A stretch of 64,000 nt of DNA. Origin: a virus (Duplodnaviria; Caudoviricetes). The notes beneath the pieces were generated by a model. That model worked only from the letters and a program-made list of their open reading frames with translations, ran no database searches and had not been told where the DNA came from. Numbering within the stretch: position 1 is the first letter of the stretch; the number at the start of each line of letters is the position of its first letter. Shown here in pieces: positions 8,134 to 63,992 of this stretch. The DNA is taken from the IMG/VR virus record IMGVR_UViG_3300028805_000070, positions 69,083 to 133,082 of that record. One strand, 5' to 3'. The position numbers and the translations under genes were made by a program.

Positions 8134-9717
8134 CTATATCTTAATTACTCGTTCACTGCTACTCGAAAACAAATCAATCGGCTCATTAATAGGTTGATTT
8201 TCCGCAGTTGTAATAAATAAATCTTCTCGTTCTCCGGTACCAAGATGTAATCTTGTCCAGATACGAACCATTTTATAGCGGCCACGCCGCATCTTATAAA
8301 TATCCAATACGTGTGTTGGTCTATTATCAAAGATAGTTGATGAAATCACTCCTTCTCGTGCAGCTACTTTCAACCCTGGTAATACTGAATTCCACGCCTT
8401 ATCTGAAATACGTTGCATTCCATATCCCATATCGGCCTTATCTGCCACAGCCTTAGACCCACGAATTGTCTTTTCATCCATAAAAGGAAGGTCATCCATA
8501 TTCATTCCAGCCGCATTTACCTGTGTTGCTGAAAATATAAATAAACCATAATCTTTTGCTAGCTGTTTCAGCTGATTAGCCAGCATCATCAGTATAACAT
8601 CCTCGCGTATATTATTTCTGGTGAATTGAGAAATCATACTCGCAGTACTATGTATATAGTCAAAGAATACATATTTTACATTATCTACTGTCGCATACTT
8701 ACGAATCGTTGCTTCTACATTTTGTAGATTTGGATCGCTAATTTCTTCAATCAAAAAATATCCACTATATTCTTCCATAATTTTACCGGCACATTTTACT
8801 CTTGTCAACTCTCCTAGTTCATAATGCCCCGTTAAAATATGATCTTCATCCACCCCAGATAAATAAGCCAACATAATTGTTTGAACTTCTTCTTTATCCA
8901 TTTCTGTCACAATAAACAGAACTTTACGAGGTTCTCGTGGATCGCCAGTCGCATCTATCTCTTCAATAAATGCTTGTTGTGTATGCGACCAACGTTTTGG
9001 ATATGCGAGATGACAAGCATCAAAAATACTTGTACGAGTTTTACCTGCACTCGTACTTGCACTTTTTAAGAAAAAACATCCATCTCGCGCCCCGCGACAT
9101 ACTGAGCTAAATATCTTCCCTTCCAAACTCGGCCCAATACTTGGCGATTTACGTAAGTCTTCAATTAACTCAAAAATTCCTTCCGCCGGATCACCTTTAA
9201 GTCGGCCGCCATTCAGAAACTCATTTCTAATTTCTGAATAATTCTTCTCTACACTATTTAATATATCTTCCAATGATGATTCATTGAAATGCTGTATTAC
9301 TTGCTGTTCTCTTGCTGGATCTACTGTACTTCTTTCATCAATATAAAATTCACTAATATCATAATTGGCTCTTTGTAACTTTCTTAAAAGTGAGCATTTC
9401 TTTAATCTATCATAATAAATTTTAAAGTTGCCTAAACTCGCGGTTTCATATGCGTTTTTTACGAAGTCTAATCCGCCCTCGCTTTTATATATTTGCAATG
9501 CCGCGCCGCCATTACGTTCAATCTCTTGGTCTATTTCAAGTACAGATAATTCCATTGCGCCCGCAGCATACATTTTTTTAATTACGTTAAAACATATTCG
9601 TGCGGGCTTATAATCAAAGTCTACTGGATTAATATCCTGATATTCCAAAAGTAATTGAGGCTGATACATTAAGCAACCGATAACATTGCGATAAGCCGCA
9701 TTATCGGATAACGTCAT
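8134..9717 (-). CDS. Replicative DnaB-like helicase
   Basis: Walker A-like ASTSAGKT, TEM, Walker B FFDYIH, ATQVN, IRGSKAVADKAD, KMRRG; ends in TAG with a backup TAA at 8122. Confidence 0.85.
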   Translation of the reverse strand: MTLSDNAAYRNVIGCLMYQPQLLLEYQDINPVDFDYKPARICFNVIKKMYAAGAMELSVLEIDQEIERNGGAALQIYKSEGGLDFVKNAYETASLGNFKIYYDRLKKCSLLRKLQRANYDISEFYIDERSTVDPAREQQVIQHFNESSLEDILNSVEKNYSEIRNEFLNGGRLKGDPAEGIFELIEDLRKSPSIGPSLEGKIFSSVCRGARDGCFFLKSASTSAGKTRTSIFDACHLAYPKRWSHTQQAFIEEIDATGDPREPRKVLFIVTEMDKEEVQTIMLAYLSGVDEDHILTGHYELGELTRVKCAGKIMEEYSGYFLIEEISDPNLQNVEATIRKYATVDNVKYVFFDYIHSTASMISQFTRNNIREDVILMMLANQLKQLAKDYGLFIFSATQVNAAGMNMDDLPFMDEKTIRGSKAVADKADMGYGMQRISDKAWNSVLPGLKVAAREGVISSTIFDNRPTHVLDIYKMRRGRYKMVRIWTRLHLGTGEREDLFITTAENQPINEPIDLFSSSSERVIKI

Positions 9718-25251: not shown

Positions 25252-25518
25252 TCTTATCACTCTCCATAATTTCTTCCATTTTATCTAGTAATTTTACCGA
25301 TGGATTTTTAGTTCCTTTAAAAATACGACTTAAATGTTCCTAGCTGCATCCAATGTGATTGGCCGCCTCAGTTTGCGTCCATCCTTTATTATATACAAAT
25401 AATTCATATTGCTTTATAATATCTCGTGTCAATTTTCTCACCTGCCTTAAAGACATATATTAAAATAAAAGAAATATGACATATCCTTCATAGAACATGT
25501 CATAATATAACCTTATAA

Positions 25519-26028
25519 TTACATCAAATGCTTCCCTTCATTAACAAATTTTTTAATTGCCTCTGGGCTTGTAAAAATCAGCCCATTCAAATATTTTTCG
25601 TGGTCAAACATATATGCAGCCTGCTCGCGCCGCCACTTATCATCTAGCAAATCTTCTAGCGGCCATCCCAATGTTACTGCAAGTTCACCATCTGGCACCA
25701 AAATTGTATCTGAATAAAAAGAATCAATTGGTTCCCATCCAAAATCTTCTGAGTAAACGGCTGGATAAAATTCATCAAAATCATCTGTTTCATTAATATA
25801 GCCGCGCACTCTAAAAAATCCAAATGTCCAAACTACAAAACGCTTATTGGCTGGCTCGAATTCTACAAATGAATAGCAAGAATTATCTTCCCAAAAGGGG
25901 TTATCGTCCCATTGTTCAATATTATCTACATTATGGCCGCTAGGTACGCTAAAAGATTGCTCAGTTTCATAAGAGCCAACTAGCGTGTGAATACGCGGGA
26001 AATCTGTTACACAATCCATAAAAGTCAT
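25519..26028 (-). CDS. hypothetical protein
   Basis: ORF track, SD present. Confidence 0.65.
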   Translation of the reverse strand: MTFMDCVTDFPRIHTLVGSYETEQSFSVPSGHNVDNIEQWDDNPFWEDNSCYSFVEFEPANKRFVVWTFGFFRVRGYINETDDFDEFYPAVYSEDFGWEPIDSFYSDTILVPDGELAVTLGWPLEDLLDDKWRREQAAYMFDHEKYLNGLIFTSPEAIKKFVNEGKHLM

Positions 26029-39343: not shown

Positions 39344-40570
39344 TTATCCATGATACTTCAGCAAGAAGCTGTTGCTTACCGCCTTAAAAGACTTAGTACC
39401 ATCAGTAGAGCGGAATACAATTCCTTCGCGCGGCTTTCCGTCCTTTACAGAGTTGCCATCAGCATATGCAAGGATAGCATCTACATTTTCAAACTGATTA
39501 ATTTTCATACAAGCTTCAAGTACAGGTACACAAGGCACGTTGTATTCTGCAAGAATCTTTGACATCTCTAGAGTACCGACACGGCCCTTAGAAGAAAAAA
39601 TTAGATTAAAGGCGGCAAAATCATGTTCGGTTAGAGAATAGTCACGCCGCTGCACCCCATCACCATAGGTTTCACCCTGAATAGTGATCCATTCTTCTTG
39701 CGGATACTTTTTAAGCATCTCGGAAAGTACGCTAAAAATATTATATTTCTTTGCCATTTCCCAATATACGTTGGTATCATAGTAACAGGGCTTATTTTCT
39801 TCGCCAAAACAAACATTACGTGAACATACATAGAAATTCTTTTTACCGAACTTACCGCGTTTCATAGTGAAAGTAGTGCTAGTACCATCAATCTTCTCAG
39901 TAGCTACCCAGTCACCAGAATCTTCCAGGATCCAAGGCATATTCTGTACACGTTCTTCATCAGTCTTGGAAACCCAAGAAGGCCATCCATTCTTCTTATC
40001 TTTCTTCTTCCCAAAGAAGAAAAACATAATCTTACGGCCCCACTCACGACGCATCATCCAACGCGCCCAAGGCTTTTTAAACAGAGAAGCATGACGCTGC
40101 GCCATTTTCTTATACTTATCTACCGGCGCGGCCTTACGGGCATTATCCTCATCATCTGCATAAGTTACTCCCAGTTTCTTAGTCAGGAAGCGAGATTCAT
40201 CAGTTACATAATGAGGTTTGCCTTCATCATCAATAATTACGGAATGATCATCCATAGCACTATTTTCAGTAGTCCAACCAAAATCAGACGGATGCATAAG
40301 CAAACCCTGAGAAATAGTTTTGCACATCTTCAAAGTCTTAACTTTGTAGTTACGCTTTTCCAGAAAAGCAAAGCACTCCTTATCAGAGGGGACACGAGAA
40401 TCAATTTCGAAATAAATAGCAGGATCGCCGACCTTAAACTGATCTTTCTGTACAATTACGCGCCAACCACCAACGATAGCGTGTTCTACACGGTCATAGC
40501 CAGGAATTGGTTCAATACCATCAATCAGGACTACATAGGCAAGTTCACGTTCTTGATTCTTATTCAGCAT
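39344..40570 (-). CDS. ATP-dependent RNA ligase (DRB0094/Rnl2-like with N-terminal OB domain)
   Basis: YFEIDS, SQGLL, KTDEERVQN, TEKIDGTS, QGE, REGIV, SFKAVSN. Confidence 0.88.
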   Translation of the reverse strand: MLNKNQERELAYVVLIDGIEPIPGYDRVEHAIVGGWRVIVQKDQFKVGDPAIYFEIDSRVPSDKECFAFLEKRNYKVKTLKMCKTISQGLLMHPSDFGWTTENSAMDDHSVIIDDEGKPHYVTDESRFLTKKLGVTYADDEDNARKAAPVDKYKKMAQRHASLFKKPWARWMMRREWGRKIMFFFFGKKKDKKNGWPSWVSKTDEERVQNMPWILEDSGDWVATEKIDGTSTTFTMKRGKFGKKNFYVCSRNVCFGEENKPCYYDTNVYWEMAKKYNIFSVLSEMLKKYPQEEWITIQGETYGDGVQRRDYSLTEHDFAAFNLIFSSKGRVGTLEMSKILAEYNVPCVPVLEACMKINQFENVDAILAYADGNSVKDGKPREGIVFRSTDGTKSFKAVSNSFLLKYHG

Positions 40571-40634
40571 TTAAATCATCCTTTCTCTTTCTTACATAAT
40601 AATTATATCATAAATTTAGAAAATGTCAATTACT

Positions 40635-42793
40635 TTATTTCCATCTTACAATACGCCAATCACTGGCAGCATACGTTACACCATCAATTGTAATTACCAG
40701 CCAGTTACCTGAAATGCGGCAAAAATCACTACATTTTCCTTTAATAATTGAGCCATCCGGCATAATAATCATACCCATACCGTAATCTTCATCCGAGGTA
40801 GATTTAGCGGAAGTATTTATTGAGGTGCATCCAGAAAGCATAATACACATTATGATACATAATAGGATAATTATAATTTTCTTCATTTATCTGTCTCCCT
40901 ATGTTCAATCTTCCATTCACCCAGTGCATTATCGAACCAAACCATTAATGTGACTCTTTGCCCATTTTTCCATCCGTGAACATAAGTTTTTATAAAAGAT
41001 GGATTCGGTATTTCTTCAATTCTATCCATTGCGCCTGATTCAAGTACAACGTCGCCTATTTCATCTTCAAGCCAATCTTTAAATTCATTACTCATTACCA
41101 CAAATCCTCCGAAAATAAGGCGGAGCACTCAGTATCTTTAATCTGCCCGCTAGCTATAGCTAATCGTTTAGCCTGTACTCTAGTATAAAAATGATCACTT
41201 TCATCAAGAAACCCTTGATCTTCTTGAGTGGAAATAAAATCATCCTTCATATACCCAAGTTCTTTTAGAATATAAAAGGCATCGCAATGGCGGTGTACGG
41301 GCAAAATGATTTCTTTATTTTGTCGCTTATCAAAAATACGAACTGCCGCGGATGTAATCATCAACATTCACTCCTTTGAAATATAGAAGAACTCGCTCCA
41401 ACTGCCCACGTCTATCTTAGTCATCCCTTTTTCTTCGTCTTCCCAAATGCGCTTATAGTATGACTTAAATCTAGTCGTGCCAGGGCTTTTTGCCGCGTTA
41501 GCTTGATCAATAAAGTCATCAATAGACCGGTATACATCTGCCCACGTATCGCAGTGTGCGATTTGCCGTATATAACCACGACTGTTTTCAAACCACAGTG
41601 TCATTTTTTTTCTCCTCGCTTTCTTTTACTATTCCATCATACTCTATATTTAGCGGTACCCAAAGGTTAAAGCCGCATTGCGGACAGGTCACATTTTGTC
41701 CTTTAGACACATCATTTGGCCCATATCCTAAAATCGCATAGCAATTGGGGCATCGCGCCAGAAGGCCACCCCATCGTCTATTTAGTACTATCATTTCCAT
41801 AGTTTGCAGTACCATACAATAGTACAGCATTCTCCTTTAATTTCCTTGTGTGCTTTTACTTTCATCTTTAAGTTAATTTCCATACCAACTTCAAAATTTT
41901 GGGCGCCTGTTTCCCAAATATACGTATTGCCTTCGGAATCCACCATATAATGCGTATGCTTTTCACCATATTGGCTTTCGCGCGCGATATTCTCTCGAAT
42001 AGTAACTTTCTTTTGGAGCCATTCGTTTTCGGTGCCTTGGAAGGTACTAGTAGTATTAGCGCGAGGGCGAATAAGATTTGAGACATAGGTTTCTACTTCT
42101 CCATACGGCTTTATTTGCGTCTCATTGACACATATATCCTCCCATTTAAGGACAATCGGAGTGACTCCATCTGGTACATTTTCCACAGGCAAATGCGCGG
42201 GAGTATAAAAATGAAAAATTTCATTATACCAAGCCTTAGGCGGATAAGTAGCTTGCGCCCAATCGCGGATAACGTTTTCATCGCCCTTATAAAGGGTAAT
42301 GAAGCCACCTTCACGAAAGCCAAAAGCATAACGTGCGTTAAAACCATCTTTAATAGGAGTATTGGGATACATCTTGCGGTATTCTGCATCAGAATACCAG
42401 CGCACCTTTTTTGCGCCCTTAGGTGTCAGTACATATACATAGTTCCGTTTATTCTCTTCAAAAGGCTCTCCCTGAATTTCATATGATTCATAAGACTTCG
42501 CTACTGCCACTCTTCTCTCCCCTTTCTATAAAAATTATACCATAAATTTAAAAAAAGTCAAATGATTAAGAAACCATCTGACTGAGAACTAATTTTTCAA
42601 ATTTGTCTGGCGCAATATGCGTATCAAGGAAATCAAACAGCGTTTGAATATGGATAATTTTTTCTTCGTCTTTTAGAATGTAACAACAGCGTAGCTGCTC
42701 TGCTAATGGATTACCAGTTTTGACAAGCGCTGTTCCTTGTATATAAATCTGAGGTATATCCTCGGGCGCGATTATCTTATGTTCAAATGTCAT
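40635..42793 (-). other. Block of short hypothetical ORFs, including a lipoprotein-like ORF 40635-40886 and a 239-aa ORF 41791-42510
   Basis: ORF track, SD sites; LSGC lipobox-like motif. Confidence 0.6.
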
Positions 42794-43395
42794 TAATTTG
42801 TACTCCAAATAGCCTGTATATATTTAGATTTAATAAGCTGCTCGGGCGTCATAGTGACAAGACTGGTTGGACACCCATCGAGATAGTGATTTTCCGCGTA
42901 CTGTAAATCGGAAAAAATTATATCTAGCATATGCTTATTGCGCGCAGGCATAGCGCGCGAACCGTGGTCACGTTCGTGAAGCCACCATTTATATTCATTG
43001 CTATAAGAAAACGCATCGCCCGAATAAGTGCGCCCGGCCGCAAGAAAGTCGCATACCATTTCTACAAAATCATTTTTAGGCATATCGTGTACAATCATAC
43101 CTTCACTAAAATTATCAGCCCAATATGCCCAATGATGTGGATTTCGGCCGCGATGATGTAACCACGCACGTGAATAACCCTGTTGCCGCTTGGCCTCAGT
43201 AATGGGAGAATGTGTACCTGTCCAGAAGCGCGCTGACTCAAAGAATTCGGTAGGAGAATACTTTGATAGGTCATGCTTCCAGCCTCTCCACCTTATACCT
43301 GCTAGGCGGCAGTAATAATGAACCCACTTACGATGGGTTCTAATAGTATTCCAATGTCCAAACATTTTTTTAAATGTTAGTTTCGGATACCGCAT
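42793..43395 (-). CDS. HD-like phage protein (DUF5662-like)
   Basis: HDLSKYSPTEF, AWLHH.GRNPHH, EMVCD. Confidence 0.65.
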   Translation of the reverse strand: MRYPKLTFKKMFGHWNTIRTHRKWVHYYCRLAGIRWRGWKHDLSKYSPTEFFESARFWTGTHSPITEAKRQQGYSRAWLHHRGRNPHHWAYWADNFSEGMIVHDMPKNDFVEMVCDFLAAGRTYSGDAFSYSNEYKWWLHERDHGSRAMPARNKHMLDIIFSDLQYAENHYLDGCPTSLVTMTPEQLIKSKYIQAIWSTN

Positions 43396-43790
43396 TTAAT
43401 CTAACCTCACAATATAATCAAATGGCTGCTTTTCTAGCCAGTTGCGGGTAAACTTATTTACTTTATAGTAATAATATTCGCCATCAGAAACATAGGCTAT
43501 TTCGACATCTTTAATAAAGTCTTCACTTTCTATAAAATCGCCGTATTCATCTTTTGTCATAAAGATATCACTATAGTCTTTCCATGACTCATTCATAGGA
43601 ACAGCGTCAAGAAATAATTCGTTAATCTCTTTAGTAATAAGATTTCCGTTTGTTTCTGTAATTGGCAAGTGTAAGCCTTTTTCATCCAATTGTCCTACAC
43701 CTTCTGCTAATGTTCCTGGTACCCACTGGTTATTTACCTTATAAAGTACTCGTTTGCCCGCTTTAATATCTAGTTTCATTTTATCTCCTC

Positions 43791-44552
43791 TTATAGAATA
43801 TATTTAAGGTAAAACTGCATGAGTTCTTTTTGAAAGTCCTCGATGAGCTTTAAACCTTTTTCTTGTACATTTGCTTTGAACTCGCTGAGTTCAAACTCTT
43901 CTTTTCGTTTATCTAATAGATTAGCAATAATGTCGCATTGCGCATTATAATAATTTTCCAAAGTATCGCTCTGGTCACGTTTAGCATTATACGCTTCCTC
44001 ATAATCTCGCGGCAAAAGCTCAAGTAAATGAGTGACATCAAGACTTTCTGTAAAAACATCCATCATACTATATAGCCGCAGAGCGTGAGAAAAGCGCTTC
44101 CCAGCGGGCATATTGCGCTTAGAAAGCTGATGTGCCATACCAGCCATCGCGTATAGCATATGGCCATAATTACAATGAGCCATATAATTCAGGCAAAACT
44201 GGTCTTCTAGGTACTTCTTTACAATTGACGCATAAGTGGGCTCATAATAACGATACTTGCCCACAAAGCATTCAACGCTATTGGGAGAAGTCTTTTTGAG
44301 AAGATTAAGCGCAAGACGAATGTCTTTATACATACATTTGCCATCTTCTACTTCAAACTCCCCGCTCTTAGGTTCGCGTGCGAACGCTAAATCTTCGGCG
44401 CTAGGAAGAATAAAGGTAAATGTATCAACATCGCTATTTGCATTATTTAATTTATAATTCTGCGAGCCAATTAGCACTGTAAAAACAGGCTCATATCCCT
44501 GTTCTTTTACTTTCATATGATGTGCATAAACATCAGTAAGAATACTCATCAT
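43791..44552 (-). CDS. Nucleotidyltransferase (Pol-beta superfamily)
   Basis: GSQNY.L....SDVD motif; HALRL. Confidence 0.75.
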   Translation of the reverse strand: MMSILTDVYAHHMKVKEQGYEPVFTVLIGSQNYKLNNANSDVDTFTFILPSAEDLAFAREPKSGEFEVEDGKCMYKDIRLALNLLKKTSPNSVECFVGKYRYYEPTYASIVKKYLEDQFCLNYMAHCNYGHMLYAMAGMAHQLSKRNMPAGKRFSHALRLYSMMDVFTESLDVTHLLELLPRDYEEAYNAKRDQSDTLENYYNAQCDIIANLLDKRKEEFELSEFKANVQEKGLKLIEDFQKELMQFYLKYIL

Positions 44553-44634
44553 GTCACTCCCTTTCTTTATATATTATATCAGAAAATAGAAAAAAAGTCA
44601 AGCATTTGATTGCTTGACTTTAAGAAGATTGAAT

Positions 44635-46110
44635 TTATCTAATACTAGAAATTGGCGCATAGCGCTCGCTTTCTAGTACATCCAGCATCATTTCGATTCC
44701 ATCCTTCCCAGAAAGCACACCTTCAAGCGCACTCATAGAGAAGCCGCTGCAATAGGAGAAACCAGGGCCAATTGCAGGAATGTTATTCTGGCGGGCGTCA
44801 AGGTTCCAGAAAATAACGCGAGGAGCAGTATAGCCATAAGACTTCCATTCCCGCATTTTTCTCTCGATAAGAGTATCAATCTGCGAGCGATTCATCGTAC
44901 GGATACGGCTTACATCGCAAGTCAAACCCCTATCGAATTCCATATCACTAAAGATATAAATCGTCTTGGGCATTTCAGCATTGGGCACATGATTACGCAG
45001 GCCAGTTTCCAGCAGCATATCAAACACCGCTTCAAGGTTGGTATTCATTCCCCAATCGGCATCAATAGCACGAGTAAACTTGTCATAAATATCAACACCT
45101 TCAAACTCTACGAGCTGCGGACGGGCGCTGAAAGTAATAAAGTGGTTATGGAACGGTCCCTTGCCGCGTTCTGCAATATAAGCGCCCATAGAAACCGCGG
45201 CTTCCATAGGAGTACCAGTCATACTGCCGCTTACATCGACCACGGCAATTCCGGGCTCTTCGCGCCCATGGTAATAATCCTTTAGATTATCCCAATATTT
45301 CTGCCAAGCCTGGCGCTCCGTACTAGAAGGCTTATTCCACCGTGCATTTAGAATCTGGTGTGCAATTTCTACGGGGTTCAGGACATTAGCATTTACCTTA
45401 GTCTTAGTGTCAGACATAAATGCAGCATAGCGCTCTTTGGTTTCTTCACGGCGCATAAAGGCATTCTTGTAAAGAAGCCCTGCGCGAGAAGGGAGCTTAT
45501 CAAAGGCAATCTGGTCCCACTGGTTCTGACTCATTAGAGTTTCAACCAAGTGGCAAGCCTTACGGCCCTCTGTAAGCATCTTACGATACTCACGAGAAGT
45601 CATACCAAAAGTCTGACGAGTCTTTAGCGCAATGCGCTTAGACTCTTTAGAAGAGCAGTTCTCACTCTTAAGCCACTTATATACAAGATGGTCATCATTA
45701 TGGAAAACCATATTGTGCAAATACTGGAACAGCATCTCCTCGCAAGGAGTGTTTTCAAGCACATAAAGGTCATCATAACGCCCATAGGTAGGAACAGAAG
45801 GAATCAGATGTTCTGCTTCCTCCGGAAAGTGCTGAGCTAGCCACTTTAGACAGACGCGGAAAAATCTACGTTCACCTGCGCCGCCGCGTACGTCACGCAG
45901 ATAGAACAGACATTTCAGCGCCAGAGTAGCATCCTCTTCATACGCTGACTTAAACATATTAATTACGTCCTCGTCAGAACGATTACGCATAGAGCCACCC
46001 ATAGCAAACATGTCTAGCACTTTGTTTAGAGTAGACTTATGGGTAATAGCACCGTTCTCAGTACGAGTATAGTTGGTTTCCTTCTTCATTGCCTTTAGAA
46101 ATTCGTTCAT
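44635..46110 (-). CDS. TROVE/Ro60-like protein with C-terminal vWA domain (DUF2828-like)
   Basis: TENGA, LFYLRDVRGGAGER helical region; MIDAS DVSGSM, NTNLEAVF, IFSDMEFD, IFWNL, SGFS. Confidence 0.75.
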   Translation of the reverse strand: MNEFLKAMKKETNYTRTENGAITHKSTLNKVLDMFAMGGSMRNRSDEDVINMFKSAYEEDATLALKCLFYLRDVRGGAGERRFFRVCLKWLAQHFPEEAEHLIPSVPTYGRYDDLYVLENTPCEEMLFQYLHNMVFHNDDHLVYKWLKSENCSSKESKRIALKTRQTFGMTSREYRKMLTEGRKACHLVETLMSQNQWDQIAFDKLPSRAGLLYKNAFMRREETKERYAAFMSDTKTKVNANVLNPVEIAHQILNARWNKPSSTERQAWQKYWDNLKDYYHGREEPGIAVVDVSGSMTGTPMEAAVSMGAYIAERGKGPFHNHFITFSARPQLVEFEGVDIYDKFTRAIDADWGMNTNLEAVFDMLLETGLRNHVPNAEMPKTIYIFSDMEFDRGLTCDVSRIRTMNRSQIDTLIERKMREWKSYGYTAPRVIFWNLDARQNNIPAIGPGFSYCSGFSMSALEGVLSGKDGIEMMLDVLESERYAPISSIR

Positions 46111-46243
46111 TTTCATTCTCCTTTTCATCTTGACCGTTGTCACGGTTGTGGGATTGATGATAGCCGCATGATTCTATACACTCGAAACAGGGGCTACCAA
46201 TTAAGCATCTTTTGTCTTCTAACATAATTATTATAATCCAATT

Positions 46244-46828
46244 TTAAGAAAAAGTCAAATAATTACCATTTCTTTCCTCTATCCTTTTATTTCTAATGTC
46301 TTCTTTAATTTGTTCTAAGTTCACAGGATAACAATTATGTGCATCCATCTCTACATGATAGCACATTTTGTCCCAATCGGCCCATTTATCCTGAGTATGA
46401 GAATGGCCACACAAATTCGCTACTCGGCGCCATTCTTCATGATTGCAAGTAAGTGTCGGATAGTGCGAGAGATAAAAACTCCACTTTCCAGATTTAATTA
46501 CCGTGGCATAGGAGCTCTCCATTCCCGCAAGAAGGGAGATATTAGGGCAAGTTTCAAGAATACGAGTAACTCGATTAACTGTACAATGATTACCTCTAAG
46601 CCAAATCTGATGTCCCTTTAAACGCTGAATATAAGGAATTGCTGCTTCGGTATCCGAGAGCGTGATGTCTCCCAGATTATAAATAACATCATCGTTGCTC
46701 ACAACCGAATTCCATCGTTCCACAATTGCTTCGCACATTTCTTCTGTGGATTCAAAGCCACGTGGGCGCCAAAGAAAATCTTTGCTATGCATCAGATGTA
46801 AATCTGAAGTTAGCCAGATTTCTCCCAT
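46244..46828 (-). CDS. Calcineurin-like phosphoesterase
   Basis: SDLH, LGD, RGNH, SHYP, GHSH. Confidence 0.85.
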   Translation of the reverse strand: MGEIWLTSDLHLMHSKDFLWRPRGFESTEEMCEAIVERWNSVVSNDDVIYNLGDITLSDTEAAIPYIQRLKGHQIWLRGNHCTVNRVTRILETCPNISLLAGMESSYATVIKSGKWSFYLSHYPTLTCNHEEWRRVANLCGHSHTQDKWADWDKMCYHVEMDAHNCYPVNLEQIKEDIRNKRIEERNGNYLTFS

Positions 46829-46830
46829 TA

Positions 46831-47310
46831 TTATGACACCTCCATTATATTAATAGCTCGTTCATCTTCATCAAGTGAGGGTGCTTTAAAATCTTTACAC
46901 ATATTACGAATTACGGCTTCAGGAACATTAGCCCTGCCCGTACGCTTAGCATTATGTTCAATACATACATCTACATTTACATTAAAACTAACATAAACAA
47001 TTTCATAATCTTTAAAGTACATATCAATTGCGTGCGTAAGTTTACGACGCGAAAACTCATTCAGATGAGTAGCATCAGCAATTACATCAAACCCATCTAC
47101 TAGAGTCTGAGTTAAGTAGCCAGTAAAGCGCCGAAAGACTTCTTTTTCGCGCGAAAAATACTCTTTATTTGGGTCGATAAGTTCAAAACGAATTTCATCC
47201 CGAGATACGTAACGAATATCATCAGTATCACGATGCTCTTTAATAAAATTTGCTGCCCAGGTAGTTTTACCGCATCCACTCGGTCCACAAAGAATATAAA
47301 GTTTAGGCAT
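46831..47310 (-). CDS. Polynucleotide kinase (T4 Pnk kinase-like, AAA_33)
   Basis: CGPSGCGKTT, SRDEIR, DATHL, VPEAVI. Confidence 0.8.
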   Translation of the reverse strand: MPKLYILCGPSGCGKTTWAANFIKEHRDTDDIRYVSRDEIRFELIDPNKEYFSREKEVFRRFTGYLTQTLVDGFDVIADATHLNEFSRRKLTHAIDMYFKDYEIVYVSFNVNVDVCIEHNAKRTGRANVPEAVIRNMCKDFKAPSLDEDERAINIMEVS

Positions 47311-47900
47311 CTTTATCCTCCCATAATAAACAAGTATGCTCTTTAGGTAGCGGGCCGCCATATTCACATCCATGATGTGTATTATATTTATCTGACATGT
47401 CGAGACAGCGCTTACATGCGAAACAATCTCGATTTTCTTTCCACTCTTTCTGCCACTTTTCAATTAAATCATTATTATCATCTTCATCAAAGAGACTTTT
47501 AAATGTACTAATCATTTCATCTCTCCTTTATGTTCATTCGTATATTTTTTCGGTAATTTTCCATTACGCTTCTCCATCTCTCATGCGCCAATAACGCATA
47601 AATTTATATTTAATAGGACTAATTCTATAAAGGTCCCATGAATATTCTCTATTACAATTAGGGCAGGGCCCAGTTCTATTTGTACTAGGAATTACATCTA
47701 TATGAAGTAAAAAAATTGCGTTGCAATAAGGACACTCGCATGGAATTACTTTCGGCTTATTTGGTCTAATAATACCACTAAAGGCTTCTTCACGCTTTAC
47801 TTTCATTTTACCCTTTCCCTTCCTTTCATAAAAATTATACTATAATTTTTAAAAAAAGTCAAATAAAAAATAGGCGGTAATTTTACTTACCGCCGATTAT

Positions 47901-49860: not shown

Positions 49861-49957
49861 CTAGGCCATTTAAATTTGAAGGGATCGAACCTTCTCAAAA
49901 ATTTTAACATCAAAAAATTTTCTTCAACCTTTATTATAAAATTGCTGTAATGGCCTA
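49861..49957 (-). ncRNA. CAGCA-stem RNA 1 (contains a T arm)
   Basis: TAGGCCATT-ACAGCAA...GAAGG-TTCGATC-CCTTC...AATGGCCTAG. Confidence 0.7.
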
Positions 49958-49961
49958 AAAA

Positions 49962-50012
49962 CTAGACGGTCTTCTTACATACACTATGTAGTTAATATGC
50001 TGTATCCGTCTA
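49962..50012 (-). ncRNA. CAGCA-stem RNA 2
   Basis: TAGACGGAT-ACAGCAT...CCGTCTAG. Confidence 0.65.
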
Positions 50013-51725: not shown

Positions 51726-51796
51726 TGGAGATACGGGGTGACGCTCCCCGGCCTGAAGCTTGCAAAGCTACTGTTCTACTGTTATACTATATTCCC
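51726..51796 (-). tRNA. tRNA-Ala(TGC)
   Basis: G3:U70, loop TTTGCAA. Confidence 0.8.
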
Positions 51797-51801
51797 ATAA
51801 G

Positions 51802-51875
51802 TACCCGAAAGAGGATTTGAACCTCCAAAACTCTGGTTCTTAGCCAGATACCTATGCCAATTCGGTTATTCGGGC
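51802..51875 (-). tRNA. tRNA-Leu(AAG), short variable arm
   Basis: TCTGG-CTAAGAA-CCAGA. Confidence 0.8.
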
Positions 51876-52039: not shown

Positions 52040-52108
52040 CAAGACCTGTTTGTAAAGCGGGTTAGATTAACAGTCTAATACTTAATAAAATAGTTGCTGA
52101 CAGGTCTT
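52040..52108 (-). ncRNA. CAGCA-stem RNA 3 (Asn GUU anticodon stem-loop payload)
   Basis: AAGACCTGT-CAGCAA...TTAGA-CTGTTAA-TCTAA...ACAGGTCTTG. Confidence 0.7.
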
Positions 52109-58827: not shown

Positions 58828-59272
58828 TTGCGCTCTAGAAACGCCGGTTTTGTTGTCGGGAACCATCACTCTCTTTATATACCGCAAGTTACCGGCGGTT
58901 CTTGATTTCGGGGAACTTCCCCTGCGGCCAAGAGAAGCCTTATCTACGGCGCGGAGTGGTATCCGGCGTAGGGGAGGACCCGGGCCTTACAGCCAGCCCT
59001 AATGGTAGTTTTTCCTCATACTGGAGATTGCTAAGGAAAATGCAACTAGTACTCAGCGCCATTCTCGACGCTGACATTTACCTTTCATACAAAGCGTGTA
59101 CTCATTAAGCACACACCCACGGCTTTTGTTTTAGCTCCCATCTTATAAAAGCCGTAAAACCGGAGCACAACTAGTTCCGACATTTATAACGCGCACATCT
59201 CAGTTGTCAGCAATTGCGCGGGCGAAGGGTCTATTTTTTACTTGCTTACTACCATCGTCCATTAAAGCGCAA
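58828..59272 (-). ncRNA. Large structured RNA B (AGAACCGC...GCGGTATATAA family)
   Basis: 10-bp terminal helix TTGCGCTTTA/TAGAGCGCAA; long-range pairs CCGGTTTT/AAAACCGG and GGGAGCTA/TGGTTCCC. Confidence 0.6.
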
Positions 59273-59347
59273 GTGTCCGTTTCCTATGATAGAATACCTC
59301 GACCAGAGCAGGCTCCGAGCGGTACAACGGCTCATACTATCAAAATA

Positions 59348-59410
59348 CTAGGCACATTTGAAAACTTTTTAATAGCAAGTTGTTCCTCATAGGGTTGCTG
59401 TGTGTGCCTA
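59348..59410 (-). ncRNA. CAGCA-stem RNA 4
   Basis: TAGGCACAC-ACAGCAA...TGTGCCTAG. Confidence 0.7.
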
Positions 59411-59413
59411 TAG

Positions 59414-59475
59414 CATGACACCTTATATTTCATCAGAATATATGTAAGTGATTATAATATTGCTGTCGGTGTCAT
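59414..59475 (-). ncRNA. CAGCA-stem RNA 5 (anticodon-like loop CUGAUGA)
   Basis: ATGACACCG-ACAGCAA...ATATT-CTGATGA-AATAT...GGTGTCATG. Confidence 0.7.
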
Positions 59476-59561
59476 TTTAAATACCAAGGCCCTCGCATAT
59501 ACATAATATATGGATACCTTGTGCCTCCTGCTATAGTAGGTCGGTCTGTCTTGCACTTTAT

Positions 59562-60179
59562 TTATTCTTCTATATAATATTTCCATTTGTATCCACCAGA
59601 AGTTTTGTTAGGATTTTTACACGCTTTGGAAATATTACTATGATCTCCTTTTATTGCTTTAGCAGCAGCGGATACAGAAGGAAAAATTTGTATAATCTCA
59701 TTAGTATTTATATCTATTTGTGCAACAGGTCTGGCTTTATATTTATTATTCTAATTAGTATTTAATTTAGATTGCTTTATGGCAGTTTGAACTGTTTCTT
59801 TTGCACAATGATATTTTCGAGCAATGGCTAAAATTCCCATTCCAGATAAAAAATCATCAATAAATAAATCATAATTATATAATTGTTTTCCATCACCGCC
59901 ATGAGTAGCATTATATCCATTATGAAATGTATTTAATTCATTAATCCAATATTTTTCTCGTTCTTCTAATATAGATAATTCACATTTTTCAAGCTATGAA
60001 ACTGAGAAATGTTCAATTCCATATTTATTCATAGCATCATATAAAGGTCGTTTTTCACATCGAGAGCGTGTAGAATCTTTTATATGCTCTCTAAACCTTT
60101 TTTCTATAGTGTCAGTGGTTTTTCCTACATACTATTTCCCATTAATATCATTTGTAATACAATAAATAAAACCTGTCAT
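59562..60179 (-). CDS. GIY-YIG/NUMOD1 homing endonuclease (3 in-frame TAG)
   Basis: GFIYCITNDINGK*YVGKT...RF.EH...EREKYWI...GYNAT.GGDG...FPSVSAAA...GGYKW. Confidence 0.88.
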
Positions 60180-60274
60180 AATAATTCCTCCTATGAATTA
60201 AAATTGTGGCCGGTAATAGGAGTACCTTAATCTCGTTGGTCATGACTCCAACGCTACCCAAAATATAAAATATA

Positions 60275-60393
60275 CAAGACACACTTTAACCGCGCTTCTG
60301 CCAATTGAGCGACCTCCCATCAGCTGGGAGGGTTGGAGTCGAACCAACACTTGACGGGCTCCCTAAGCAAAGAAAATAATGCTGATGTGTCTT
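60275..60393 (-). ncRNA. CAGCA-stem RNA 6: YrlA-like Y RNA with circularly permuted tRNA domain
   Basis: AAGACACAT-CAGCAT...T arm GTTGG-TTCGACT-CCAAC, closed acceptor CCTCCCA-GCTGA-TGGGAGG, D arm GCTCAATTGGCAGAAGC...GTGTGTCTTG. Confidence 0.8.
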
Positions 60394-60398
60394 TAAAG

Positions 60399-60469
60399 CG
60401 GCCCCTGAGAGAATCGGACTCCCATCAAGCGGTTAACAGCCGCCCGCTTTACCATTAAGCTAAGGGGCC
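60399..60469 (-). tRNA. tRNA-Asn(GTT)
   Basis: GGCGG-CTGTTAA-CCGCT. Confidence 0.9.
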
Positions 60470-60560
60470 AAATATTGCCTACCCAAAGTTCCTCAAATGA
60501 GGCGGAACAGGCGGCTAATAGTGTTCCTTATGATGGCTCAGGCGGGATACCCTTGCCGAG

Positions 60561-60633
60561 TGGCACAGACAAGAATCGAACTTGCATTTGTTGGGTATGA
60601 GCCAACTGTCCTAAGCCTTTAGACGACCGTGCG
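60561..60633 (-). tRNA. tRNA-Met(CAT), initiator-like 1:72 mismatch
   Basis: GTTGG-CTCATAC-CCAAC; C1 unpaired. Confidence 0.8.
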
Positions 60634-60731
60634 ATATAAAAAGGTCAACTTGTAGCTATCAAGCTGACCGAGGTAATCCTAGCTACAGAAACCATACCAT
60701 AAGCGCACCTTCTGCCGAGTCGCCAATACGC

Positions 60732-61765: not shown

Positions 61766-61824
61766 CTAGGCGCATCAATATTATATTACCCTCTAATATA
61801 TATAAATATTGCTGTAAGCGCCTA
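61766..61824 (-). ncRNA. CAGCA-stem RNA 7
   Basis: TAGGCGCTT-ACAGCAA...GCGCCTAG. Confidence 0.7.
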
Positions 61825-63927: not shown

Positions 63928-63992
63928 CTCGGCACATTGATAATTAGCTGTTATCTTCTAAATGGTGCTAAAAAAGTTGCTGTATGTGCCGA
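63928..63992 (-). ncRNA. CAGCA-stem RNA 8
   Basis: TCGGCACAT-ACAGCAA...ATGTGCCGAG. Confidence 0.7.

What the first reader, a model, noticed from the sequence alone, without database searches (positions are those of the whole stretch)
60275..60393. Circularly permuted tRNA mimic (T arm, closed acceptor, D arm) inside a CAGCA stem
Seen: GTTGG-TTCGACT-CCAAC, then a 7-bp hairpin CCTCCCA-GCTGA-TGGGAGG, then TC-GCTC-AATTGGCA-GAAGC, all enclosed by AAGACACAT/GTGTGTCTT. Known: this order, with the anticodon arm replaced by the terminal stem, is the YrlA-class bacterial Y RNA architecture. It is the strongest independent support that the whole CAGCA family are Y-like RNAs.
Basis: partly seen in the sequence, partly recalled or inferred. 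Interest (0 to 1): 0.8.

Follow-up and report, generated by a model that had tools for sequence, protein, structure and literature searches.

The report
Rotated tRNA look-alike, phage Y-like RNA
This 119-base phage gene encodes a complete proline-tRNA look-alike written back-half-first, sealed at the amino-acid end and clamped by a conserved "handle"; it most likely partners the phage's own Ro60-shaped protein rather than decoding codons, and I found this RNA family in neither Rfam nor the papers searched.

Summary
On the minus strand, 60393-60275 reads terminal stem, CAGCA, T arm, 7-bp loop-closed acceptor stem, D arm, terminal stem.

One correction: the anticodon arm is not replaced. A Pro-type loop (UUAGGGA) sits 5' of the T arm. 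Its 5-bp stem is split, and the terminal stem enters between tRNA positions 29 and 30. Un-permuted in silico, ARAGORN calls it tRNA-Pro(AGG).

At least 81 distinct relatives in IMG/VR phage contigs share the design, with strong covariation. It is not a formal YrlA member: 19.8 bits against a cut-off of 69, and no GNCGAA motif.

The 502-aa DUF2828/DUF7788 protein at 44635-46143 folds like Ro60 (Z 17.7). All 12 near-complete carrier phages encode it, against 2 of 12 controls, and those two also carry such elements. Handle RNAs lie beside this gene in Listeria, E. coli, Mycobacterium and Campylobacter phages.

Best reading: a non-decoding, YrlA-like partner RNA of a divergent Ro60-like protein. 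Binding and the effector are inferred, not shown. A true permuted tRNA gene is unlikely but not excluded.

This scan has noted the same family in at least 96 other genomes. I rate it a new variant of a known kind.

The parts
60275..60393 (-). Whole element: handle plus circularly permuted tRNA-Pro-like body (119 nt). It starts 4-5 nt after the 3' end of tRNA-Asn (60398/60399-60469).
60385..60393 (-). Terminal (handle) stem, 5' strand AAGACACAT
   Evidence: The matching columns covary across 81 relatives.
60380..60384 (-). Invariant CAGCA motif of the handle. Here it is followed by U; the family consensus is ACAGCAA.
60358..60368 (-). Distal anticodon arm: GC, 7-nt loop UUAGGGA (tRNA-Pro type: U33, NGG, G37, A38), GC
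60355..60357 (-). Proximal anticodon-stem 3' strand CCG (positions 41-43). It pairs with CGG at 60290-60292.
   Evidence: the split stem is perfect in 57 of 81 relatives; the null with swapped partners has mean 22.5 and maximum 28
60349..60354 (-). Variable region UCAAGU. The last U can form the Levitt pair with A15.
   Evidence: read directly from the sequence
60332..60348 (-). T arm GTTGG-TTCGACT-CCAAC
60313..60331 (-). 7-bp acceptor stem closed by the 5-nt loop GCUGA (CCTCCCA / TGGGAGG)
60294..60312 (-). U8, C9 and the D arm GCTC-AATTGGCA-GAAGC (G18 and G19 present; extra A in the 3' strand)
60290..60293 (-). G26 and CGG (positions 27-29), the proximal anticodon-stem 5' strand
60275..60284 (-). 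Terminal stem 3' strand GTGTGTCTT plus the conserved trailing G
44635..46143 (-). Inferred protein partner: 502-aa DUF2828 + DUF7788 protein with a Ro60-like fold (helical-repeat ring plus vWA domain with a DxSxS MIDAS motif). Same strand, 14.1 kb downstream of the element.
39344..47463 (-). RNA healing-and-sealing cluster around the Ro60-like gene: P-loop kinase (AAA_33), metallophosphoesterase, weak sub-threshold RlaP-like (Pol-beta family) nucleotidyltransferase match, DUF5662, RNA ligase
49861..49958 (-). Sibling handle RNA 1, carrying a T-arm-like hairpin
49962..50012 (-). Sibling handle RNA 2
52040..52108 (-). Sibling handle RNA 3, carrying an anticodon-type arm with a CUGUUAA loop
59348..59475 (-). 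Sibling handle RNAs 4 and 5, in tandem
61766..61824 (-). Sibling handle RNA 7
63928..63992 (-). Sibling handle RNA 8

Best explanation
The element is a small non-coding RNA gene of a rumen or gut phage that reads TAG as a sense codon. It is probably transcribed with the tRNA array.

The RNA has two modules:

1. A handle. This is a 9-bp closing stem with conserved outer pairs, the single-stranded CAGCA motif beside its 5' strand, and a trailing G. All eight handle RNAs in the window share it, as do hundreds in other phages. It is inferred to be the docking site for the phage's Ro60-like ring protein (the DUF2828/DUF7788 protein at 44635-46143), as the closing stem and CGAA bulge of Y RNAs dock Ro60.

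2. A payload. This is a complete tRNA-Pro-shaped body with D arm, T arm, elbow nucleotides and anticodon loop. Its amino-acid end is sealed by a 5-nt loop. Its own ends leave through the 5' strand of the anticodon stem, between positions 29 and 30.

With no free CCA end, it cannot be charged as made. It is inferred to act as YrlA-type Y RNAs are thought to act. In that model the tRNA shape tethers, baits or gates a tRNA-recognising factor on the Ro60-like protein. That factor could be a repair enzyme of the adjacent kinase/phosphoesterase/ligase cluster, a host nuclease, or a host tRNA-cutting defence.

Shown here: the architecture, its conservation and covariation, the Ro60-like fold, and the genomic linkage. 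Inferred: transcription and ends at this locus, the physical binding, and the identity of the effector.
For: - Architecture: all motifs are at the stated coordinates. The YrlA model aligns the T, acceptor and D block. The un-permuted sequence is called tRNA-Pro(AGG).
- Family: 81 distinct relatives align. Of paired cells, 96.5% are standard pairs against 67% in shuffles. The covariation score is 0.76 against 0.19 (0 of 500 shuffles reach it), and slid controls give 37-47%. All 7 terminal-stem pairs and all 7 acceptor pairs covary. Filter bias is small.
- Split anticodon stem: perfect in 57 of 81, against a null mean of 22.5 and maximum of 28. Loop position 33 is U in 82% and position 37 is a purine in 96%.
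- Non-decoding signs, family-wide: 23% of the anticodons start with A34, including His-AUG, Asp-AUC, Phe-AAA and Cys-ACA. Leu- and Ser-type anticodons sit on bodies with short variable regions. The base after the acceptor 3' strand is A 25, G 20, U 20, C 10. Closing loops are as short as 1-3 nt. Close orthologs carry AGG, UGG or GAG on the same body.
- Partner fold: the AlphaFold model has pLDDT 79. Eleven of the 12 best Foldseek PDB matches are Ro60/Rsr chains and the twelfth is a crystal structure titled Trove domain; these include the Thermus phage Ro60. VIA-align gives Z 17.7 over 410 residues, against 9.9 for the best chain that matches the vWA domain only. A DxSxS motif is invariant.
- Linkage: 35 of 49 carrier records encode a homolog, and 12 of 12 among records at least 90% complete. 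Among tRNA-rich controls the figures are 3 of 50 and 2 of 12. Fisher p is 4e-12 and 7e-5.
- The three positive controls each carry CAGCA-to-T-loop pattern matches 0.3-6.6 kb upstream of the gene on the same strand. Stem-closed handle RNAs were confirmed in all three.
- Handle RNAs lie right beside the gene in Listeria phages cka15/cka16, E. coli phage REP6, Mycobacterium phage Aegeus (gene annotated Ro-like RNA binding protein) and Campylobacter phage F375.
- In CKA15, published transcriptomics report very highly transcribed unannotated regions within 2 kb upstream of this gene and suggest Y RNAs (PMC12282133). The three handle RNAs lie in such a gap behind a TTGACA-17-TATCAT promoter.
Against: - No experiment shows that any DUF2828 protein binds a handle RNA.
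- The protein matches neither the Pfam TROVE model nor any PDB sequence. Only its predicted fold is Ro60-like.
- The handle lacks the GNCGAA/CGAA motif of known Y RNAs.
- This element scores 19.8 bits against the YrlA model, where the cut-off is 69.
- It lies 14.1 kb from the Ro60-like gene, not within the 4 kb typical of YrlA. The nearest sibling is 3.7 kb away.
- The thermodynamic minimum (-39.0 kcal/mol) pairs an upstream GAGC and a CUUU stretch with the D-arm strand. It beats the tRNA-like fold (-29.0) by 10 kcal/mol.
- The perfect tRNA anatomy, including U33 and G37, is more than a pure protein tether would seem to need.
- The co-occurrence counts are not corrected for relatedness among the phages.
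Confidence: 0.65

Rival explanations
1. It is a true circularly permuted tRNA gene. The handle would be cut out and positions 29 and 30 joined, for instance by the phage's own kinase, phosphoesterase and RNA ligase. RNase P and 3' trimming would open the acceptor loop and CCA would be added. The product would be a decoding tRNA-Pro(AGG, perhaps read as IGG).
For: - The un-permuted sequence is a canonical cloverleaf, as it is for 73 of 75 relatives.
- Joining the two strands gives a perfect 5-bp anticodon stem.
- The loop is typical of tRNA-Pro, and the closest phage tRNA is tRNA-Pro(CGG) at 66% identity.
- The array holds Pro-CGG but no Pro-UGG or Pro-AGG. The phage also has an ordinary tRNA-Leu(AAG) with A34.
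- The acceptor stem is 7 bp. M. smegmatis YrlA, which has such a stem, is cut by RNase P and receives CCA in vivo (PMC4201824).
- An RNA ligase, a kinase and a phosphoesterase are encoded 13-21 kb away on the same strand.
Against: - No splicing-type endonuclease is known in bacteria (10.1101/312249).
- The junction shows no bulge-helix-bulge motif. It has a 9-bp stem with linkers of 16 and 5 nt.
- Family-wide the anticodons include A34 forms in split codon boxes. Leu and Ser anticodons lack the long variable arm. The discriminator-position base is a pyrimidine in 40% of members, and the first acceptor base is often not G.
- Close orthologs change the anticodon (AGG, UGG, GAG) on one body.
- The same handle carries payloads that can never become tRNAs, such as single hairpins or anticodon arms alone.
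- Listeria and Campylobacter phages have the handle RNAs next to the Ro60-like gene, with no RNA ligase among the annotated genes of the stretches examined (CKA15 and F375).
Confidence: 0.07
2. It is a stand-alone decoy or sponge for a host tRNA-cutting defence or a tRNA-modifying enzyme. The handle would serve only for processing and stability and would not bind the Ro60-like protein.
For: - The anticodon loop is kept in tRNA form: U33 in 82% and a purine at position 37 in 96%.
- Sibling RNAs display bare anticodon arms on the same handle.
- Phage tRNA arrays and RNA repair genes are thought to counter anticodon nucleases (PMC7824862).
Against: - It does not explain the conserved sequence of the handle.
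- It does not explain the tight, same-strand linkage of handle RNAs to the DUF2828 gene in phages of four bacterial phyla.
- More than 20 different anticodons occur, so no single nuclease fits.
- It is compatible with the best explanation if the decoy works while bound to the Ro60-like protein.
Confidence: 0.12
3. It is a decaying remnant of two tandem tRNA genes (the 3' half of one and the 5' half of the next), or a cis-acting leader for the downstream GIY-YIG endonuclease gene, with no function as a tRNA mimic.
For: - It sits in a tRNA array where gaps of 1-7 nt between tRNAs occur.
- A dimeric-tRNA origin has been proposed for YrlA (10.1101/312249).
- The minimum-energy fold is not the tRNA-like one.
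- A homing endonuclease gene starts 96 nt downstream.
Against: - At least 81 distinct relatives keep all helices through compensatory changes.
- The acceptor strands of two different tRNAs would not pair.
- The handle recurs with other payloads and without any endonuclease gene nearby.
Confidence: 0.03

Closest known systems
YrlA (Y RNA-like A; Rfam RF02553), partner of bacterial and mycobacteriophage Ro60/Rsr (Chen et al. 2014, PMC4201824; structure preprint 10.1101/312249)
   Same: - It has the same order of modules inside a closing 5'/3' stem: a stem-loop, then T arm, loop-closed acceptor-like stem, and D arm.
- The conserved D-arm and T-loop sequences are nearly the same.
- It is encoded on the same strand as, and upstream of, a Ro60-shaped protein gene that sits among RNA repair genes.
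- One family member (L074) scores 50.3 bits over the full model, as good as a TROVE-linked actinophage RNA at 50.7 bits.
   Different: - This element scores 19.8 bits (cut-off 69), and only on model positions 30-81.
- The 5' motif is CAGCA(A), not GNCGAA(N)G.
- The partner is a DUF2828/DUF7788 protein that the Pfam TROVE model does not detect.
- A true 7-nt anticodon loop is present, whereas Salmonella YrlA lacks one.
- The closing stem branches from the anticodon stem rather than continuing it.
- It lies 14 kb, not under 4 kb, from the protein gene.
- The same handle carries many other payloads.
Thermus phage phiLo Ro60 with Yrl1 and Yrl2 (PMC12135203)
   Same: - It is a phage-encoded Ro60-type ring protein with small RNAs encoded upstream on the same strand.
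- Those RNAs have a 5'/3' stem flanking an internal loop with a short conserved motif.
- The phiLo Ro60 structure (9l5y, 9kop) is among the best structural matches of the window's protein, at Z 16.
   Different: - Binding is demonstrated there and only inferred here.
- The motif there is CGAA.
- The cited passages describe no tRNA-shaped payload for Yrl1 or Yrl2.
- Structure-based sequence identity between the proteins is 15%.
Circularly permuted tRNA genes of Cyanidioschyzon merolae, some green algae and Thermofilum pendens (reviewed in PMC3978253)
   Same: - The 3' half is encoded before the 5' half.
- The acceptor strands are joined by a short linker.
- The rotated sequence is a full cloverleaf.
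   Different: - Those precursors carry a bulge-helix-bulge motif at their ends. They are cut by the splicing endonuclease, circularised and opened to give working tRNAs.
- Here there is no such motif, no such enzyme is known in bacteria, the break lies in the anticodon stem (26/27 to 30/31), and the anticodon statistics argue against decoding.
Class I RNAs of dictyostelid social amoebae (PMC7919456; search pattern in PMC5054030)
   Same: - They have a short closing stem joining the 5' and 3' ends, with a conserved motif ending in ACAGCAA directly after the 5' strand and a variable interior.
- They start with AAG and end with CUGU.
- This element starts with AAG and ends with CUUGU, and its siblings carry UUACAGCAA or AUACAGCAA.
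   Different: - They are eukaryotic, about 60 nt long and have their own promoter element.
- The known direct binder is an RRM protein.
- No tRNA-shaped payloads are reported.
- This element has only CAGCA of the 11-nt motif.
- Common descent was not tested here.

Membership tests
YrlA (Rfam RF02553; Chen et al. 2014) | T stem-loop, then a loop-closed acceptor-like stem, then a D stem-loop, enclosed by pairing of the 5' and 3' ends | tested here: met
YrlA (Rfam RF02553; Chen et al. 2014) | tRNA elbow and core nucleotides able to form the tertiary contacts (U8, A14, G18 G19, U54 U55 C56, A58, Levitt pair 15:48) | tested here: met
   Read from the sequence: U8 at 60312, A14 and A15, G18 and G19, T loop UUCGACU, and A15 with the last U of the variable region. 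The fold itself was not probed.
YrlA (Rfam RF02553; Chen et al. 2014) | GNCGAA(N0-1)G motif near the 5' end, the presumed Rsr contact | tested here: not met
   The 5' region reads AAGACACAU-CAGCAU. The model's positions 1-29 are not aligned.
YrlA (Rfam RF02553; Chen et al. 2014) | Covariance-model score at or above the curated gathering score (69 bits) | tested here: not met
   19.8 bits, E 0.089, model positions 30-81 of 114. Relatives score 35-51 bits.
YrlA (Rfam RF02553; Chen et al. 2014) | Encoded within about 4 kb of a TROVE-domain Ro60 gene and on the same strand | tested here: not met
   It is on the same strand and upstream, but 14.1 kb away. The gene is DUF2828/DUF7788, not PF05731. 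In other phages the handle RNAs do lie 0.04-6.6 kb from the gene.
YrlA (Rfam RF02553; Chen et al. 2014) | Bound by Ro60/Rsr in cells | not testable with these tools
   This needs immunoprecipitation or a gel shift.
CAGCAA-handle RNAs linked to DUF2828 Ro60-like genes (uncatalogued; defined in this scan) | 7-10 bp closing stem with conserved outer pairs (5' WAGRY, 3' RYCUW), then one unpaired G | tested here: met
   AAGAC...GUCUU-G
CAGCAA-handle RNAs linked to DUF2828 Ro60-like genes (uncatalogued; defined in this scan) | Single-stranded (A)CAGCAA 0-3 nt after the 5' strand of the stem | tested here: met
   CAGCA is invariant in 81 of 81 aligned relatives, which were selected by that motif. Here the variant CAGCAU directly follows the stem.
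CAGCAA-handle RNAs linked to DUF2828 Ro60-like genes (uncatalogued; defined in this scan) | A DUF2828/DUF7788 gene in the same genome, on the same strand | tested here: met
   44635-46143, minus strand; family-wide linkage
Circularly permuted tRNA genes (Cyanidioschyzon type) | The 3' half lies upstream of the 5' half, and the rotated sequence is a canonical tRNA | tested here: met
   ARAGORN calls tRNA-Pro(AGG) on the rotated sequence. Across the family it of 81 native and 73 of 75 rotated sequences.
Circularly permuted tRNA genes (Cyanidioschyzon type) | Bulge-helix-bulge motif at the paired ends for the splicing endonuclease | tested here: not met
   By inspection there is a 9-bp stem flanked by unpaired stretches of 16 and 5 nt, with no 3-nt bulges around a 4-bp helix.
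Circularly permuted tRNA genes (Cyanidioschyzon type) | Anticodon, body and discriminator coherent with a decoding tRNA | tested here: not met
   The element has an AGG anticodon, U1-A72, and a G after the acceptor. Family-wide there are A34 forms in split boxes, no long arm on Leu/Ser types, and 40% pyrimidine at the discriminator place.
Circularly permuted tRNA genes (Cyanidioschyzon type) | A circular intermediate and a mature linear, CCA-ending tRNA exist | not testable with these tools
   This needs junction RT-PCR and northern blots in an infected host.
Dictyostelid Class I RNAs | AAG start, short closing stem, 11-nt motif CCUUACAGCAA after the 5' strand, CUGU end, DUSE promoter, dictyostelid genome | tested here: not met
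   The start, the stem and a CUUGU end are present. Only CAGCA of the motif is present, and the genome is a phage. This is a resemblance, not membership.

The most novel reading that the evidence does not exclude
The element and its relatives are genuine circularly permuted tRNA genes of bacteriophages. The conserved handle would be a recognition signal for cutting. The phage's own healing-and-sealing enzymes (kinase, phosphoesterase, RNA ligase), helped by the Ro60-like ring, would join positions 29 and 30. RNase P and CCA addition would then open the acceptor loop to release a working tRNA-Pro. That would be the first permuted tRNA maturation pathway outside eukaryotes and archaea, and a physiological substrate for phage RNA repair enzymes.
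Probability: 0.07. Interest if true: 0.95.

Novelty: new variant of a known kind. Interest (0 to 1): 0.7.

Why it matters
- Ro60 and Y RNAs are a conserved but poorly understood RNA surveillance system. The partner of the tRNA-like domain of bacterial YrlA is still unknown.
- This element belongs to a large, uncatalogued family in which one conserved handle displays whole rotated tRNAs, bare anticodon arms or other pieces. The family is tied to a Ro60-shaped protein that sequence models do not recognise as TROVE.
- Homologs of that protein occur in 710 cultured-phage records. These include Felix O1-type coliphages and P100-type Listeria phages used for biocontrol, so the question is testable in standard laboratory systems.
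- The family may explain the extremely abundant unannotated RNAs seen in Listeria phage CKA15.
- It bears on how phages defend or exploit the tRNA pool.
- Its handle resembles the unexplained Class I RNAs of social amoebae. If that reflects common descent, it would give those RNAs a candidate protein partner.

Tried and rejected
- blastn of 60150-60650 against cultured phage records found no match.
- A mismatch search with this copy's stem plus CAGCA found 18 matches against 13.3 expected by chance. The family is therefore not a sequence repeat and is seen only through structure. CAGCA alone is not enriched in the window.
- cow-rumen-4 hits in related loci are RBS-containing leaders, not the handle.
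- The YrlA full-length alignment of relative L074 forces the outer stems and does not align CAGCAA with GNCGAA.
- A last Rfam scan over two short sibling RNAs gave only chance-level snoRNA hits.
- A PDB sequence search with the Ro60-like protein gave nothing meaningful. Only the fold search worked.
- Two sheep-gut metatranscriptome runs and one DNA run were laid on 59300-60700. RNA-library contigs cover the element with no differences and show no joints. Contigs cannot show transcription, ends or rare circular forms, so this says nothing either way.
- A search for a tRNA(CUA) or a CUA anticodon arm, to test whether a permuted tRNA supplies the missing amber suppressor, found none convincing in the 133-kb contig.
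- The protein atlas returned only phage and bacterial DUF2828 clusters, so the amoeba link could not be tested.
- Two reviews (PMC5062991, PMC10870794) are not held.
- A first paper search with the word TROVE was swamped by "treasure trove". A search for DUF2828 found only plant and tardigrade papers.
Full report
**Setting.** The window is the last 64 kb of a 133-kb viral contig. Positions 49.4-63 kb hold a minus-strand array of 20 tRNA genes found by ARAGORN, plus a tRNA-Cys found only by Rfam. The phage appears to read TAG as a sense codon. Reading TAG through doubles the summed length of long open frames. The GIY-YIG endonuclease gene just downstream of the element (59562-60179, minus strand) has three in-frame TAGs. 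The nearest sequencing runs that hold this DNA are sheep gut metagenomes.

**Observation.** On the minus strand the element runs from 60393 to 60275.
- the stem AAGACACAU pairing with GUGUGUCUU
- CAGCA
- the T arm with a UUCGACU loop
- the 7-bp hairpin CCUCCCA-GCUGA-UGGGAGG
- UC, then the D arm with G18 and G19

The Rfam YrlA model aligns exactly the T arm, closed acceptor and D arm (model positions 30-81 of 114). The score is 19.8 bits, far below the curated 69 bits.

The 36 nt between CAGCA and the T arm are not a plain linker. They contain GC-UUAGGGA-GC followed by CCG, and the three bases after G26 on the far side of the D arm are CGG. Joined, CGG+GC pairs perfectly with GCCCG. The RNA therefore holds a complete 5-bp anticodon stem with a 7-nt loop of tRNA-Pro type (U33, NGG, G37, A38). 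The stem is split between positions 29 and 30, where the RNA's own 5' and 3' ends leave through the terminal stem. When I rotated the sequence in silico, ARAGORN called it tRNA-Pro(AGG). In the native order it calls nothing. The closest ordinary tRNA of the phage is tRNA-Pro(CGG), at 66% identity.

- Of 97 distinct matches to a pattern that fixes only CAGCAA, the T loop and GCUCAA, 84 have a 6-7 bp acceptor hairpin and 81 also have a closing stem.
- Eighty relatives plus this element align. RNAalifold recovers the terminal stem, T stem, acceptor stem and D stem.
- Pair counting gives 96.5% standard pairs against 67% in shuffles. The covariation score is 0.76 against 0.19 (0 of 500 shuffles reach it), and controls with slid partners give 37-47%.
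- The split or contiguous anticodon stem is perfect in 57 of 81. After swapping the D-side strands among sequences the mean is 22.5 and the maximum 28. The break point varies from 26/27 to 30/31.
- Rotated, 73 of 75 are called tRNAs; native, 0 of 81.
- Three close orthologs (L001, L070, L193) keep the body with compensatory changes and carry UGG, UGG and GAG in place of AGG.

**Decoder or mimic?** The tRNA anatomy is complete, but several family-wide features speak against decoding:
- 23% of the anticodons begin with A34, including His-AUG, Asp-AUC, Phe-AAA and Cys-ACA.
- Leu- and Ser-type anticodons sit on bodies with short variable regions.
- The base at the discriminator place is a pyrimidine in 40% of members.
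- The first acceptor base is often not G.
- Closing loops can be 1-3 nt.

The same handle also carries payloads that cannot become tRNAs. The seven sibling RNAs in this window are examples, as are hairpin-only members in other phages. I saw no bulge-helix-bulge motif. [quoted passage not shown] I therefore put the true permuted-gene reading at about 7%. It is not excluded: the acceptor stem has the 7 bp that made M. smegmatis YrlA an RNase P and CCA-addition substrate, and the phage encodes a kinase, a phosphoesterase and an RNA ligase.

**The protein partner.** On the same strand, 14 kb downstream, lies a cluster of P-loop kinase, metallophosphoesterase, a 502-aa DUF2828/DUF7788 protein, a protein with a weak, sub-threshold match to the RlaP nucleotidyltransferase family, DUF5662 and RNA ligase.
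- The 502-aa protein has no Pfam TROVE match and no PDB sequence match.
- Its AlphaFold model (pLDDT 79) matches Ro60 over its full length. Eleven of the 12 best Foldseek matches are Ro60/Rsr chains and the twelfth is a crystal structure titled Trove domain. They include Xenopus, human, Deinococcus and Thermus phage phiLo.
- VIA-align gives Z 17.7 over 410 residues, against 9.9 for the best match to the vWA domain alone.
- A DxSxS MIDAS motif is invariant.
- SEA-PHAGES annotators already call the mycobacteriophage homologs "Ro-like RNA binding protein".

**Linkage.**
- Of 49 further IMG/VR records carrying a handle-type tRNA mimic, 35 encode a homolog. Among records at least 90% complete the figure is 12 of 12. 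An earlier test of nine carrier records gave 7.
- Of 50 records fetched for closely spaced tRNA genes but without the element in the fetched stretch, 3 encode it, and 2 of 12 complete ones do. Fisher p is 4e-12 and 7e-5.
- I then predicted that those three would carry the RNA elsewhere. All three have CAGCA-to-T-loop pattern matches 0.3-6.6 kb upstream of the gene on its strand, and stem-closed handle RNAs were confirmed in each.
- In cultured phages, handle RNAs sit directly beside the gene: three in Listeria phages cka15/cka16, four in E. coli phage REP6 (one a rotated tRNA mimic partly overlapped by a 131-nt annotated "tRNA-Thr"), two in Mycobacterium phage Aegeus and two in Campylobacter phage F375.
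- These counts are not corrected for phage relatedness. The proteins are only 28-41% identical to the window's protein, and the hosts span four phyla.

**Expression evidence, indirect.** For Listeria phage CKA15, a multi-omics paper reports extremely abundant transcripts from small unannotated or dubious ORF regions within 2 kb upstream of CKA15_055 and suggests Y RNAs. It also detects the CKA15_055 protein in purified virions (PMC12282133). The three handle RNAs lie in the unannotated gap 25283-25563, just behind a TTGACA-17-TATCAT promoter. Whether they are among the reported peaks needs re-mapping. For this window, RNA-library contigs cover the element, but they cannot show transcription.

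**Mechanism.** I commit to a YrlA-like model at about 0.65 confidence. The handle docks the Ro60-like ring, and the sealed tRNA-Pro-shaped body tethers, baits or gates a tRNA-recognising factor. Candidates are the neighbouring repair enzymes, a host exonuclease as in the Ro60-Y RNA-PNPase complex (PMC12135203), or a host tRNA-cutting defence. The element starts 4-5 nt after tRNA-Asn, so tRNA 3' processing could release its 5' end; this is inference.

One caveat concerns the fold. The thermodynamic minimum (-39.0 kcal/mol) pairs an upstream GAGC and a pyrimidine run with the D-arm strand. It is 10 kcal/mol below the tRNA-like fold. The four Pro-type orthologs all keep this alternative. A conformational switch is possible.

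**Comparison with what is known.**
- The design is that of YrlA, but formal membership fails on score, on the 5' motif, on distance to the protein gene and on the Pfam family of the partner.
- It differs from Salmonella YrlA in having a real anticodon loop.
- Rfam 15 has no family for the handle. I found no paper that describes it.
- The handle resembles dictyostelid Class I RNAs, as an earlier agent of this scan noted. I checked the published pattern GTTGRCCTTACAGCAA ... GTCAACTG and the AAG start and CUGU end. Common descent is untested. One of the four Class I pull-down proteins, DDB_G0281243, has unknown function, and I could not fetch it.

**Earlier findings of this scan.** The same family was noted before in at least 96 other genomes, and other agents reached the same reading. 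I treat these as leads only. The tests above are my own.

**Verdict.** This is a new variant of a known kind (a Y-like tRNA mimic), belonging to a widespread family that is uncatalogued as far as the tools can show.

Noticed in passing
whole contig; example ORF at window 59562-60179 (-): TAG appears to be read as a sense codon. Long-ORF content doubles and the longest frame grows from 1321 to 4758 aa when TAG is read through. The GIY-YIG endonuclease gene next to the element has 3 in-frame TAGs. No tRNA(CUA) or CUA anticodon arm was found in the 133-kb contig.
   Followed up: partly
window 58973-59117 (-): A full-length match to the Rfam orphan motif cow-rumen-3 (115 bits) lies inside the tRNA/handle-RNA array. 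In related locus L016, a sub-threshold cow-rumen-3 match (8513-8608) lies 270 nt after that phage's rotated tRNA mimic.
   Followed up: no
window 60180-60265 (-): The stretch between the element and the GIY-YIG start codon begins GGGTAGCGTTGGAGT and can form GTTGG/CCAAC and GGAGT/ACTCC helices. The same opening words follow the ortholog in L001. It may be a leader of the endonuclease gene or another small RNA. No Rfam match.
   Followed up: no
window 51801-51875 (-) and 51726-51796 (-): An ordinary-looking tRNA-Leu with the unusual A34 anticodon AAG. Next to it is a tRNA-Cys(GCA) that Rfam finds and ARAGORN misses.
   Followed up: no
OR088597.1 (Listeria phage cka15) 25283-25563 (-); locus L254: Three tandem CAGCAA-handle RNAs, each ending in CUGU, lie in an unannotated gap 68-350 nt upstream of the Ro60-like gene CKA15_055. 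A TTGACA-17-TATCAT promoter sits in front of them. The published study reports very abundant unannotated transcripts in this neighbourhood and finds the 055 protein in virions.
   Followed up: partly
L244 1746-1854 (IMG/VR record G072): The same handle carries a tRNA body in normal order (D arm, anticodon arm CUUCUAA, T arm), with the handle stem taking the place of the acceptor stem. The family therefore displays tRNA parts in several topologies.
   Followed up: no
L104 57-171 (-) (173-kb IMG/VR record G008): A rotated tRNA mimic whose anticodon-type loop reads CUCUAAG, an amber-suppressor-like CUA. The Ro60-like gene of that record has one in-frame TAA. It is worth checking whether that phage recodes a stop codon.
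   Followed up: no
L255 5824-5954 (E. coli phage REP6, OQ174505.1): A 131-nt feature annotated tRNA-Thr (GGT) overlaps one handle RNA and part of a rotated tRNA mimic (handle RNAs at 5789-5859 and 5878-6004). Public annotations probably mislabel members of this family as odd tRNAs.
   Followed up: partly
window 60275-60393 and siblings; Dictyostelium literature: The handle (AAG start, short closing stem, ...ACAGCAA, ...CUGU-like end) closely matches the published pattern of dictyostelid Class I RNAs. One Class I pull-down protein, DDB_G0281243, is of unknown function.
   Followed up: partly
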